This document shows, piece by piece, positions 27,480-37,300 of a stretch of DNA of 64,000 bases. The translations under genes were made by a program, and so were the position numbers. The notes beneath the pieces were generated by a model. That model saw only the letters and a program-made list of their open reading frames with translations. It ran no database searches and was not told the origin of the DNA. The number at the start of each line of letters is the position of its first letter. Position 1 is the first letter of the stretch. Source of the DNA: the human T2T-CHM13v2.0 reference genome, Homo sapiens; assembly GCF_009914755.1 (NCBI RefSeq), contig NC_060936.1. The stretch is one strand, 5' to 3'.

Positions 27480-27620
27480 CTCCGGTACCCAGGCCTAGAG
27501 AGCTACTGAAAGTTACAAATTGCTTCCATTATTAGCTCATCCCGGGCGGCCTGGTCATTGGCCAGCCCCTGGCCACGTGGTCCCTCGTACCAATCGATCG
27601 AATTCTAGTCGCAATTCTCT
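27480..27620. promoter_or_regulatory. CpG-island promoter, probably bidirectional: inverted CCAAT (27557), E-box CACGTG (27574), CCAAT (27590)
   Basis: Motifs read directly; flanked by divergent consensus splice donors (- strand 27317/27318, + strand 28170/28171). Confidence 0.7.
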
Positions 27621-27725
27621 GTCTGTCCCTCGGCTCTGGGGAGAAAGGGGGGGCTGTGGCGTGGGGGCTGAGGAGGGGCTAAGGCGGGAGGGGCGCCTCA
27701 TCCCTTCACCCTCCCTTTTCGCCAT

Positions 27726-28170
27726 GTGGGGGCCCTGAGCGCCGCCCCAGAAGAGGTCGAGGGAATGTTGTGGGCTGGGGCACACCAGCACGGCAGAAAC
27801 TGGAGAAAGCGAGAGACGTCGCCAGGGACCCAGGGACCTCTCCCTCCAGTTCCCCGGGCCCGCCCGGCCCTGATGGCCACTCACGCTATAGCGCCCACTC
27901 TGTCCTGGGCCATCCCGCGCCAGCAGTGTAGCCCCCAGCCCGGGCGCCTGAATGCTCTCCCTCCGGATCGCTGCTCGGGTCCCCACTTTGGCGACCGTGC
28001 CCCCGAGTCCTGCTTCCCCGGGGCCTGCTCTGTATCAGGCGCCTGCGCCTTCAAGGGTACCCGGCCCGCCTGCCCTCCCCAAGAGCCGAGTTTGCGCTCC
28101 TCCCGGAATCGTTTGAGAGAAGGACAAACTTTTGGCAGGATGGAAATCTAGATGAGCCTGTCCGGAGCAG
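27726..28170 (+). pseudogene. Exon 1 relic of a paralog-group-1 Hox gene (putative HOXC1), hexapeptide region
   Basis: CAA ACT TTT GGC AGG ATG GAA ATC TAG ATG AGC CTG TCC GGA GCA G|gt = QTFGRMEI*MSLSGA-G versus Hox1 QTFDWMKVKRNPPKT-G, same spacing and phase-1 intron; 5' boundary uncertain. Confidence 0.8.
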
Positions 28171-33184: not shown

Positions 33185-34378
33185 ATGAGGGGGGAAATGG
33201 GGAGTAAGCTTTGCTAACCAGATGTGGGATGAATCAATTAGTTTTATGTATTAATCATGATTATGACCTTCACATCCCCTTGGCTCACCCCTAGACAATT
33301 CTTCCCCACTCCCAGCCATCTGCAAACCACAGTCAGCCTGTCCCTGCTCCCAAAAATGGAATTGCTGATGCCCTCAAGGCTGTTACTCTCCCAGGGTGAG
33401 TGAGAGTGAGGTCAATGGCGCCAGGTCGGAGCCTCAAACTCTTAAATAAACAAAGCATATTTCCCTATTCCTGATGCAGTTGGGGGTCATCTATCCCTTG
33501 GAATGGAGAGGCTGGCAATTCTGGCTCTTGGCTATCTTTCCACAGAACACCCCTGATTAGCCAGGCCCACCGCCATCCACATCTGCTCGGCAAAGAAGGA
33601 AGGCAGCTTGTTCCAGACCTTGGTGAGCAGCTGCAGACTGCCTGCCTAGAACAGCCTCCTTACTCCAGCCTGGCAGGGAAGGAAGGAACCTGACTTGCTT
33701 CGCAGGATCTGGAAGCTCAGCCGGCAGAGCTGAGAGCCGCAGTTGCATCCTGGAGCCTGATGCTAGAAGCAGCTTCCGTCTTTGGGTTCTTGCTGCCTCG
33801 GCCTCTGCTCTGTTCAGTTTGCTGTTGTGTTTTTCTCCCCCATGTTGGGGTGGTGGGGTACAGGGAAATAAAATGCTTTCTCCCAGGCCCCTAATCCTTC
33901 CCCATGCCTCCATCAGCCTCAAAGCTGCTGACAGTCATGAACTGCACCTTCCAGCCCTGCCCATAAGCTACTCAAAGCAAATTCAAATTCTCTTCTGGCC
34001 AGGAGGAAGGGCAGATGCTCCCTCCTTCCTCAAGCCTCCCTGGCTCATTGATCCATTTTGAGGGCATTTGGGGGTCAAAGTTGAGACCAGATTGCTTCAG
34101 TTTGTATAAAATTAGCATTTCTTATCACACCAAGGCCACACCTGTTCTCTGGCCTCACAAACCAGTGAGGATGTAAAGGTTTGTTGAGGTGGAGGAACAG
34201 AAGTGAAATGAGCAATCTGCTCCATTTAGAAGTCAGTCGCTTCGGCTGTTCATTCCACTAATATTTATCTAGTACCTATTCTGTGCCAAGCATTGTCTCT
34301 ACCTCAGTTTGCCACAAATATGAAAAAAAAAAAATTCTTGGAACTGTGAGGCTTCAATGTGTTGTGGACCAATATACA

Positions 34379-34384
34379 AATAAA
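34379..34384 (+). terminator. Polyadenylation signal AATAAA of the lncRNA terminal exon (alternative AATAAA at 33867)
   Basis: AATAAA followed about 16 nt later by GT-rich sequence. Confidence 0.6.
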
Positions 34385-37300
34385 CCAATGGAAAAGAAAG
34401 TGTGGTTCGGAGTCAGCTGATTTTCATTGCAGCTTTCCATGTGCTGGGTCTAAGAGCCCCTGACTTCCGAGCTCCAGCTACCCAGCCCCAGCTGGTTGAC
34501 AAGCAGGACTTCCCTGGGGCCCATTTGTTTTTCCCACTGGAAAAATGTTAGAATGGGAGCAAGAAGCCTGTGCTGGGATCAACCGCCATGAAAGTCCCAA
34601 AACAAAGGGTTTGGGATGGGCGGCGGTGGGGCCCTCCCAAACATTGCTCCGTCAGAGGTGAGGGAGGGTAGGGGTGATGTGATACGTTTCTCCAGGTTGC
34701 AGAGCAGGTCTGTGAGTTTGCCTTGGTGTAATCACGTGCCTGAAGGTGATAACAAGGGTGTGCATGTGTGAGTGAGCTGAAGGGGGGCAGAGAAGTGTGC
34801 CTGTGCCAGGCTTGTGTACACCGGGCCCAGATGCCTGCACAGGTGCCAGTGTGTGTGTGTGGAGGGGGATAGAGGTGCCTGCAAATCTGAACATGTCTCT
34901 CCATATGTGACCCTCAGTGTATGTGAGAGTGTGTGTACCCGCTGAATTATGATAAAATTACACCGACCCTTACAGAAAATCCATAACAGCCTCGGCCTTT
35001 CTCCCCCGACCTCTCGACCTCTGGGGTGCCTGAGGAAAGGGTTGACCTGGTCACTGCCTCCTCCTAGTCAATGAGTCCCCCTCCATTAGCATAAAACATG
35101 AATCTGCTGGCAGCTTGACAAATTATAACTAGCAGCCAGAGTTTTGCCAACTGGCTGGCTTGGGTGCTGTCTATTTATCATTGAAAATGGTAAATCATAA
35201 GAATCCAGATGACTTAATTATTCAAATCCACCCAGGACCCAGAGAAGCTGCAGGCCCGTCAATCTCAGCCCTGGGCTCACAGAGAAGAGTGGGGGAAATG
35301 CTGTGAGCTTGTGAGCTGGAAGAAGCAGGTTCCATTGCCGCCTCTCCCCTACCCAGAGAGCAGGATTTTTCTCTGCAGCCCCTTCCCCTCCCTGCCGTTC
35401 TGCCCACCTTTCCAGCCAGAAGCCCGGCCAATTGTTTTGGTTGCTGGCCTCCCAAGGCTCTCCCTCGCACGCCTCCCGCTGCCCACCACCCGCTCCTCAA
35501 GCTCAGCCAGTGTTTCCCGGCCTCTCTTTGTGTGGATGTTAGCTCTTTCTCTCTGTTTCAGTGCCCTCATTTTTATTTCTTCTCTTTCTCCTATTCCTTT
35601 CACCATTTCTCTTCGTCTCTCCTCTGCCCACAGATAGACACTGAGCCCCGCACAGGGCCTCTCTGGTGGAGTTTTGCCTGCTCTCCTGGCCCCTTTGTCC
35701 TCACTGTCCCAGAGGTGCCAGCTCAGGATCCCCACGCATACGCACCCCAACCTTAACCCAGCGCTCCGAGTGCTAGAAGGCCTGAATTCGCGTCTCTCTG
35801 CTGTGGGGCCATATGGAAACACACATGTCAGTGGATAATACTGGGCCTGCCCCCACACCCCATACACACAACCTTTCTGTCCCTTTCTTCCGTGGATTTC
35901 TAACTACCATTATGCACAACTTGGGAGGTAGTGGCCAGGCTGTCAGAGATGTGCCCGGACCACTGAGGCAGGGCTTCGTCTCAAGAAGGCCCATCCCTCA
36001 CTCCCAGCATGGAACTACCTCAAGCCCCAGCAGAGGGATTGCTCAACATGAGCTTTCCCAGAAGGAGAAGAAACCCTGTTTACAGAACAAGTCCTAGATC
36101 CAGAGGTCTGCACACTGAGCTTCTGGGGGGCCCTTTGATGTTTGGGTCCTTTTATCTTTGTGTCCCTCACAGTCCAATATAAATATGTCCTACTTTTTCT
36201 TGCAGTCCTGGACCCCGTGAGAAATTTATGCCCTTCTAGACCCACAATGGCAGGTGGGAGGCACATATTCACCAATGCTGATATTGCTTTGACCCCAGAG
36301 GGGAATGTGAGGAGCAAGGAGGTTGCCAGAGCCCCTCTGCTTGAATGGCATCCCGGTCTATTCTTTTGGAGGGCTTGCTTTACCTGTAAGGGCCCTGGAG
36401 GCTCCTCAGAGCCACTTCTGTGTCTGCAGATGCTTGTCAACTTGGTTCTGGGATTCAGTTTGGCTTTGTCGGGGTGTGTGTGTGAGCACGTGCACACCTT
36501 TCGTGGATAACCTGGAGTCTTGACATACTGATGGGTCGTGCCTGGTGGCGTGCATGCCTGCACAAGTGCGCCAGTGCCCCTGATGTGTATGTGGGTGAGT
36601 GTGTATGTGTGCATGAACACACACTTCCAGAAAGAGCCCTTGTGCTGAAACAACGAGTGACAATGTCCCCACCAACAGGACACCTGAGGAAACAGCCCTC
36701 TCCATTCCATTTTAAGGCCTCTGAGCAATGTTGTTGTCAGTGAAATATTGGACTTGGCATATCATAAAACCTTAAAGAAGGAGCTACCTGTTTCTGCTAC
36801 TGAAAGTAAGTTCTTCCTAGAGTCTAGCCTTCTCTTCTTCTTTCAGGGCGGAATATGAGCATAGTCAGAAATCTCGAGAGGGGGCTCCCTACTCCTCCAA
36901 GAGAACATACGTGACATATAGGGAGCCCTTCCACAGCCAGGCTCATCCCCACAGCTTAAACACTTCATCCCCTCACTCTTCCCTTCTTCTCCACCTTTCC
37001 AAGCCAGGGTGATATTTGACAAGGGCAGTGGCGAGGGGTGAAACTTGGGGCGGGTGGCTGGGGGAAGGATAAAGATTCAAAAGCAGGCCAAGCTGCTGGA
37101 AGGCAGGAGATCAATAAGGGGAGACAGATTGGAGACAGGTTTCTCTCACTACTTCCCCACCCCTCGCTGGCTCAGCACCCCCGCCCCAGCTCCTGAAAGC
37201 AGGTGGAGGACAGAGCCAAGCACTGGCCTCTCCCTGCCCTTCTAACTCAAACAGGTTCCTAATCCCTGGGTAGAGGGTAAACAGCCTCTAAGCACGGCCA

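What the first reader, a model, noticed from the sequence alone, without database searches (positions are those of the whole stretch)
27620..34400. lncRNA apparently born from a dead Hox gene: reuses its promoter, exon 1 and donor but skips the homeobox exon
Seen: the ancestral donor is still a perfect CAG|GTAAGC while neighbouring codons decayed. A second acceptor (ctatctttccacag, 33544-33545) and AATAAA (34379) define a terminal exon of about 850 nt beyond the homeobox. Inference: the transcript (likely LINC02381, recalled) is a protein-gene fossil, comparable to Xist deriving from Lnx3. Retention of the promoter and donor suggests selection on transcription or splicing at the 3' end of the cluster rather than on protein.
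Basis: partly seen in the sequence, partly recalled or inferred. Interest (0 to 1): 0.75.

Follow-up and report, generated by a model that had tools for sequence, protein, structure and literature searches.

The report
Lost HOXC1 gene reborn as lncRNA
The human long non-coding RNA LINC02381 is made from the first exon and splice donor of a decayed Hox gene, likely the HOXC1 that placental mammals are said to lack, whose broken homeobox lies skipped in its intron, so a body-plan gene was likely recycled into an RNA gene much as Xist was.

Summary
Observation confirmed; interpretation partly supported. A decayed homeobox lies at 31174-31351 (nhmmer E 6e-11). LINC02381 exon 1 ends exactly like HOXA1/B1/D1 exon 1: a hexapeptide relic, then a phase-1 donor 40 nt on. 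A Hox-type CCAAT/E-box module sits 55 nt upstream of the annotated start. Position, residues and a tree point to HOXC1 (about 0.9); HOXC3 is the weak rival.

Decay is about 0.22 per site. That makes the intact donor unremarkable (P 0.14-0.61) and, on recalled rates, puts the loss near the placental stem. Published knockdowns favour a cytoplasmic RNA acting in trans over a cis effect on HOXC.

I found no paper linking LINC02381 to HOXC1, but one key lizard HoxC1 paper was not held. It is a new member of a known kind (Xist/Lnx3-type fossil lncRNA), and predicts a readable or even intact HoxC1 in marsupials.

The parts
27557..27594 (+). Hox-type promoter module: reverse CCAAT box 27557, E-box CACGTG 27574, CCAAT 27590 (symmetric, so possibly bidirectional)
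   Evidence: Same ATTGG-15..17-CAC[AG]TG module upstream of the three human group-1 genes and in 9 of 17 Hox loci fetched; the only + strand hit in 106 kb
27450..28900 (.). CpG island over promoter, exon 1 and start of intron
   Evidence: CpG o/e 0.58-0.68, against 0.39-0.46 in the homeobox exon and 0.18 in exon 2
27629..28170 (+). LINC02381 exon 1, the relic of HOXC1 exon 1
   Evidence: Hub RefSeq annotation; its 3' end is homologous to group-1 exon-1 ends; the 5' part shows no detectable homology
27765..28151 (+). 128-codon ATG ORF in the ancestral hexapeptide frame, ending in TAG 19 nt before the junction
   Evidence: 163 of 2000 shuffles give an ORF as long; no Pfam hit
28125..28170 (+). 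Decayed hexapeptide and tail (W codon and a K codon lost)
   Evidence: 34 of 52 nt to the HOXA1 place; 8 changes from the tail of unnamed record P0324, 3 of 20000 shuffles as close
28171..28176 (+). Ancestral phase-1 splice donor, used by the lncRNA
   Evidence: 40 nt after the hexapeptide F codon, as in all three group-1 genes
31094..31121 (+). Skipped acceptor: branch-like CTGAC, C-rich and T-poor tract, TAG
   Evidence: 3 T in positions -22..-4 against 8 T at the used acceptor; splicing to it gives a stop after 5 codons
31174..31351 (+). Decayed homeobox with two 2-nt insertions and one 6-nt deletion, inside the lncRNA intron
   Evidence: nhmmer E 6.1e-11; register; 19 of 38 invariant residues kept
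33546..34399 (+). LINC02381 terminal exon; single-copy, origin not resolved
   Evidence: Hub annotation; acceptor seen; only a self-match in the genome
34379..34384 (+). Poly(A) signal, 15 nt before the annotated end
   Evidence: hub annotation
22835..27953 (-). FAM242C antisense lncRNA, starting inside exon 1 of LINC02381
   Evidence: Hub annotation; canonical GT/AG at both introns

Best explanation
LINC02381 is transcribed from the decayed first exon of a group-1 Hox gene, likely HOXC1, and splices from that gene's original donor past the broken homeobox to a downstream terminal exon. Shown: homeobox relic, hexapeptide relic, donor position and phase, promoter motif, CpG island. Inferred: the gene lost its protein near the placental stem while its CpG-island promoter stayed active. 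The donor then paired with a stronger, T-rich acceptor 2.4 kb further on. This makes a two-exon RNA whose exon-1 stop lies only 19 nt before the junction, so it would escape nonsense-mediated decay (50-nt rule, recalled) and accumulate in the cytoplasm. Published work has it acting there in trans on miRNA/HuR targets. Two of the three predicted miR-4492 sites map to the Hox-derived exon.
For: Exon-1 end and +40 phase-1 donor shared only with the three group-1 genes. Homeobox E 6e-11. Codon positions 1+2 rank the three group-1 genes first (68, 67, 66 of 104). Closest of 256 proteins is a HoxC1-clade record (49 changes; next 52; median 59). The tree places the relic inside the HoxC1 clade (UFBoot 89; 96 with P0324). 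It lies on the + strand about 70 kb past HOXC4 (hub). HoxC1 is reported lost in placental mammals but kept in caecilians and some lizards. Promoter module. The RNA is abundant and cytoplasmic, with homologous transcripts listed in 11 mammals, and a poly(A)-insertion knockout shortens dendrites. miR-4492 site positions: (my offset mapping).
Against: Whole-DNA scores slightly favour group 3 (HMM 33.2 vs 29.4 bits; HOXB3 top); the excess is at third positions. Diagnostic residues are only 9 to 5 for group 1 over group 3, with 5 ties. The relic's branch is very long, the register was set by hand and P0324 was picked after scoring. The exon-1-end HMM gives E 2.6. No N-terminal Hox1 motif was found in exon 1, and promoter alignments to the paralogues are not clearly above shuffles. 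The promoter module is general to Hox genes and occurs 281 times in the genome. No perfect RARE, unlike the A1 and B1 flanks. The two functional papers disagree on HOXC10. No RNA-seq junction data could be examined.
Confidence: 0.75

Rival explanations
1. The origin is as described, but the RNA is a by-product: what is kept is the DNA element (a bidirectional CpG-island promoter or enhancer shared with FAM242C), and splicing and sequence drift neutrally.
For: Donor retention fits neutrality. RefSeq enhancers overlap 28003-29273 (hub). Listed orthologue identities are only 65-75% in rodents and ungulates. Hezroni 2017 notes that DNA-element constraint can explain such fossils. No significant excess conservation of the promoter against six duplicated copies (2 of 218 fixed differences vs 5-7 of 349-497).
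Against: High abundance (347 FPKM in one motor-neuron fraction), and siRNA and poly(A)-insertion phenotypes. Trans effects reported.
Confidence: 0.3
2. [quoted passage not shown]
For: Position next to the cluster. The 11-nt promoter core is retained (neutral P 0.07, range 0.013-0.22) and the CpG island is kept. HOXC4 logFC -0.29, P 0.054 on knockdown.
Against: HOXC4/5/6/10 not significantly changed (padj 0.14-0.86). The RNA is mainly cytoplasmic. The HOXC10 effect was reported as trans. Donor retention is not significant.
Confidence: 0.15
3. The relic is HOXC3 (also lost in mammals) rather than HOXC1.
For: The group-3 DNA HMM scores higher. Homeodomain residue 56 is Y, as in group 3. No other Hox relic was found between HOXC4 and this locus.
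Against: Group-3 genes have no donor 40 nt after the hexapeptide and match the exon-1 end at only 17-23 of 52. Codon positions 1+2, amino-acid cost and the tree favour group 1. No HoxC3 full-length orthologue from a tetrapod was compared.
Confidence: 0.07
4. The locus still makes a peptide: the 128-codon ORF in the ancestral frame is translated as a truncated Hox N-terminus.
For: The ORF is in the hexapeptide frame and its stop lies near the junction. The RNA is cytoplasmic. A paper predicts micropeptides.
Against: An ORF this long arises in 163 of 2000 shuffles. The hexapeptide W is lost. There is an upstream out-of-frame ATG at 27724. No family hit and no tblastn hit of 351 homeodomain proteins in exon 1. 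That paper's passages are prediction only. Coding-potential tools call it non-coding.
Confidence: 0.07

Closest known systems
XIST from Lnx3 (also JPX, FTX); lncRNAs derived from lost protein genes (Hezroni 2017, PMC5577775; PMC10195156)
   Same: A spliced lncRNA at the place and on the strand of a lost protein gene, reusing an exon and likely the promoter; a loss in early mammals is inferred.
   Different: The parent is a Hox cluster gene, the defining domain stays as a skipped intronic fossil, and the RNA is cytoplasmic. No HOX or LINC02381 term in Hezroni's text or 4 supplements or in the main text of PMC10195156.
HoxC1 of caecilians, some lizards, coelacanth and ray-finned fish
   Same: Position at the 3' end of the C cluster, hexapeptide-donor layout, homeodomain affinity.
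   Different: Frameshifted, with a stop and a deletion; no protein possible from the homeobox.
LINC02381 = LOC400043 = HMS (PMC8363838) = CyCoNP (PMC11381359)
   Same: The same transcript and two-exon structure.
   Different: In the parts read, these papers treat it as an intergenic lncRNA near HOXC and give no Hox origin.
Described Hox pseudogenes, such as caecilian psi-HoxD12 (PMC4470032)
   Same: A unitary Hox relic left in its cluster position.
   Different: This one is transcribed and spliced into an abundant RNA.

Membership tests
Hox paralogue group 1 / HOXC1 orthologue | Homeobox of Hox type | tested here: met
   nhmmer E 6.1e-11; Pfam E 0.0046 on one piece
Hox paralogue group 1 / HOXC1 orthologue | Hexapeptide followed by a phase-1 intron 40 nt after the F codon | tested here: met
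   gapped HMM weak
Hox paralogue group 1 / HOXC1 orthologue | Group-1 diagnostic homeodomain residues | tested here: inconclusive
   10:3 vs group 2, 9:5 vs group 3, 10:2 vs group 4; lowest cost for fish HoxC1a and HOXB1; whole-DNA score favours group 3
Hox paralogue group 1 / HOXC1 orthologue | Groups with HoxC1 rather than A1, B1 or D1 | tested here: met
   UFBoot 89/96 on 82 columns and 38 hand-picked rows, long branch
Hox paralogue group 1 / HOXC1 orthologue | 3' of HOXC4 on the same strand | tested here: met
   HOXC4 homeobox at C12:54020444 +; hub annotation
Hox paralogue group 1 / HOXC1 orthologue | Syntenic alignment to lizard or caecilian HoxC1 | not testable with these tools
   No vertebrate genome other than the window's own is held
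Functional Hox1 protein gene | Intact reading frame | tested here: not met
   TAG at 28149, two 2-nt insertions, 6-nt deletion
Functional Hox1 protein gene | 3' DR5 retinoic acid element as in the A1 and B1 flanks | tested here: not met
   No perfect DR5 or DR2 in the window; perfect DR5 found 3' of A1 and B1, none for D1
lncRNA derived from a lost protein gene (Xist/Lnx3 type) | lncRNA exon homologous to an exon of the lost gene, same strand | tested here: met
   with the hub's exon coordinates
lncRNA derived from a lost protein gene (Xist/Lnx3 type) | Inherited promoter | tested here: inconclusive
   Shared CCAAT/E-box module and CpG island; no significant extended alignment; no orthologue promoter available
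lncRNA derived from a lost protein gene (Xist/Lnx3 type) | Parent lost in the lineage and intact in outgroups | tested here: met
   Literature passages; fish HoxC1a proteins
lncRNA derived from a lost protein gene (Xist/Lnx3 type) | Not translated | not testable with these tools
   Coding-potential predictions only; 128-codon ORF present
lncRNA derived from a lost protein gene (Xist/Lnx3 type) | Transcript conserved across mammals | not testable with these tools
   A published table lists 11 species; not checked by alignment

The most novel reading that the evidence does not exclude
HOXC1 stayed a working gene in the mammalian line until after the marsupial split and died on the placental stem, like Lnx3. 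Its promoter and first exon were then kept as a conserved neural-progenitor lncRNA, so humans carry an overlooked, transcribed 40th Hox locus, and some marsupials may still encode HoxC1 protein (lead: the Tasmanian devil gene listed as a LINC02381 homologue).
Probability: 0.35. Interest if true: 0.85.

Novelty: new member of a known kind. Interest (0 to 1): 0.68.

Why it matters
The papers read list HOXC1 as absent from placental mammals. A readable human relic dates that loss far later than the amniote ancestor and gives a direct target for checking marsupials and monotremes. It also gives a much-studied lncRNA (200 papers in the library) an origin that may explain its neural-tube, retinoic-acid-timed expression. 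And it offers a clean case for asking which parts of a dead developmental gene (promoter, donor, GC-rich exon) get recycled.

Tried and rejected
Protein search with the helix-3 piece found no longer relative (1 candidate, none scored). The PDB search with the helix-1 piece found nothing; the helix-3 piece gave only weak homeodomain hits (best E 0.18). tblastn with full group-1 proteins was weak (best E 0.002) and noisy.

No Hox1 N-terminal motif inside exon 1; the best scores lie upstream of the start and are near background. No RARE above chance. No Rfam family in 22000-36000. No second Hox relic (HOXC3) in the 106 kb scanned. The blastn of paralogue flanks showed only repeats in the 20 rows printed. 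The linker match to P0324 is not significant (2066 of 20000 shuffles). The Atlas gave only generic homeodomain clusters for P0324, and the exon-1 ORF could not be looked up there, nor was it searched against the large protein databases.

Rejected: the chr9/chr20 matches as retrocopies (they are genomic duplications); donor retention as proof of selection; chance overlap of lncRNA and relic.
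Full report
1. Observation. The window is G000 C12:54064001-54128000. Further AATAAA hexamers lie at 33445 and 33867. A homeobox relic spans 31174-31351. An HMM of 17 human Hox homeoboxes finds it at E 6.1e-11 in 106 kb, and the next hit has E 0.52. Read against the paralogues it has two 2-nt insertions and a 6-nt deletion (register set by me). It lies in the lncRNA's intron.

2. Which gene. I fetched the three human group-1 loci with a recalled motif (3 of 4 hits were Hox) and 20 other homeobox loci. 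The names A1, B1, D1 and so on are mine, from cluster order and recall; D1 is backed by named relatives. In all three group-1 genes the donor lies 40 nt after the hexapeptide F codon, in phase 1, and so it does in the window. Ungapped identity over 52 nt is 34, 29 and 27, against 13-23 for 15 other loci. The site is the best of 212,698 positions and beats the maximum of 100 shuffles. Without the donor bases, 3 of 212,716 positions score as high. Against this, a gapped HMM of the same ends gives only E 2.6.

The homeobox alone is less clear. Whole-DNA scores favour group 3 slightly. Codon positions 1+2 put the three group-1 genes first (68, 67, 66 of 104, then 65), and diagnostic residues run 10:3, 9:5 and 10:2 for group 1 over groups 2, 3 and 4. 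I collected named fish HoxC1a proteins and searched 1.84 billion representatives with a profile of ten. Of the 256 among 351 stored and 3 human proteins that had both motifs in range, the unnamed record P0324 is closest to the relic (49 changes, next 52, median 59). Its hexapeptide tail is far closer than shuffles (3 of 20000) but its linker is not (2066 of 20000). A tree of 38 hand-picked rows and 82 columns puts the relic with P0324 (UFBoot 96) inside a HoxC1 clade (89), on a very long branch. With the position about 70 kb past HOXC4 on the same strand, I put HOXC1 at about 0.9.

3. Promoter. ATTGG at 27557, CACGTG at 27574 and CCAAT at 27590 lie just upstream of the annotated start. The ATTGG/E-box pair, spaced 15-17 nt, precedes all three group-1 genes and 9 of 17 Hox loci in all (0 of 6 non-Hox loci; upstream coverage was short for some). 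It is the only + strand hit in 106 kb. A stricter form occurs 281 times in the genome, against 35 for the reversed control. Longer promoter alignments were not clearly above shuffles (4-23 of 300, and at other places). CpG o/e is 0.58-0.68 over promoter and exon 1, and 0.39-0.46 in the homeobox exon, where 5 of 6 invariant Arg codons have lost their middle G. Promoter inheritance is therefore likely, not proven. No RARE was found.

4. Age and selection. At sites fixed by residues invariant in 13 reference proteins, 16 of 74 have changed (0.22; Jukes-Cantor 0.26, range 0.14-0.43). On recalled neutral branch lengths (about 0.18 from human to the placental root, about 0.4 to the therian root) this points to the placental stem, with a wide margin. 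Under that decay a GT survives with P 0.61, eight donor bases with P 0.14 and the 11 promoter bases with P 0.07. The skipped acceptor's AG also survives. The intact donor is thus no evidence of selection. Six duplicated copies of the promoter showed no significant excess conservation on chr12 (small counts).

5. How it likely works. The old promoter fires and the old donor is used. The acceptor at 31121 is T-poor (3 T against 8) and splicing to it hits a stop after five codons, so the 33545 acceptor wins (causal step inferred). In the spliced RNA the exon-1 ORF stops 19 nt before the junction, so it would not trigger decay (recalled rule).

PMC11381359 (passages, sections 21 and 25, supplement rows) finds one well-detected isoform. 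It peaks in neural progenitors and early in retinoic-acid differentiation, homologous transcripts are listed in 11 mammals including the Tasmanian devil, dendrites are shorter after poly(A)-insertion knockout, and HOXC4/5/6/10 do not change significantly after siRNA. PMC8363838 (passages and Discussion) finds it cytoplasmic and stabilising HOXC10 mRNA in trans through HuR and C-rich stretches. The two papers disagree on HOXC10, in different cells. By my offset mapping two of three predicted miR-4492 sites, and 7 of 11 C-runs, fall in the Hox-derived exon. PMC9373536 (passages) only predicts micropeptides. I favour a trans-acting cytoplasmic RNA with inherited Hox-like expression; a neutral by-product of a retained DNA element is the main rival.

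6. What is known. HoxC1 is reported in caecilians, lobe-finned fish and some lizards and as lost in placental mammals (passages of PMC3038165, PMC4470032, PMC9498476, bioRxiv 2024.09.03.611012). Searches for prior mention gave the following. LINC02381+Hox+pseudogene gave 13 papers, none on origin by listing. HoxC3+pseudogene+human gave 11. Whole-word HoxC1 gave 31, 29 listed. HoxC1+pseudogene gave 3, all on fish or amphibians. In a mixed search none of 30 listed (of 46) held both a LINC02381 name and HOXC1 or HOXC3. Searches were uninformative. Hezroni 2017 (passages and 4 supplements), PMC10195156 (main-text passages, supplements not searched), PMC4584094 (12 of 25 passages) and the tammar Hox paper PMC3541083 (term counts) do not mention it. 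Feiner and Wood 2019 (recalled) is not held, bioRxiv supplements are closed and most subscription journals are missing, so prior mention cannot be excluded; I put it at about 0.4.

7. Verdict. A real, transcribed unitary Hox pseudogene, likely HOXC1, forming LINC02381: a new member of the Xist/Lnx3 kind. Interest 0.68.

Noticed in passing
window about -6900..27673; L002-L007, L038-L042: A segmental duplication of about 34.6 kb (96-97% identical; extent measured on one C20 copy) ends exactly 45 nt into LINC02381 exon 1. Six copies, 4 on C9 and 2 on C20, carry the promoter module; in the one breakpoint read (L002) it is fused to unrelated sequence. They are likely the other FAM242 loci (recalled), and the exported Hox promoter might drive new transcripts.
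   Followed up: partly
window 22835-27953 (-): FAM242C runs antisense from the relic's promoter region towards the cluster, the same arrangement as HOTAIRM1 at HOXA1 and HAGLR at HOXD1 (recalled). The promoter module is symmetric and the splice sites are canonical.
   Followed up: partly
window 34248-34296: A short segment in the terminal exon resembles a LINE-2 3' end (recalled); one weak match in a fetched locus (71% over 49 nt, E 0.047), none in the genome search.
   Followed up: partly
window 33867-33872 and 33445-33450: Extra AATAAA hexamers: one inside exon 2 (possible short isoform), one just before it (possible older 3' end of the Hox gene).
   Followed up: no
window 30330-30960: A purine-rich (A/G) tract of about 600 nt just upstream of the skipped homeobox exon.
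   Followed up: no
window 31525-31876 and 32884-33207: Two Alu-like insertions in opposite orientation between the homeobox and the terminal exon (masked in the hub's file; family recalled). They might pair in the pre-RNA and favour skipping.
   Followed up: no
window 27724-27738: A 4-codon ATG ORF after GCC near the 5' end, reminiscent of upstream CCATGG motifs seen in the A1, B1 and D1 leaders.
   Followed up: no
PMC11381359 supplement, Conservation sheet: The Tasmanian devil homologue (LOC100919090, ENSSHAG00000008509) is listed at 78.95%, above cow and pig. Its biotype is unknown to me, and a literature search for the ids gave only unrelated papers.
   Followed up: partly
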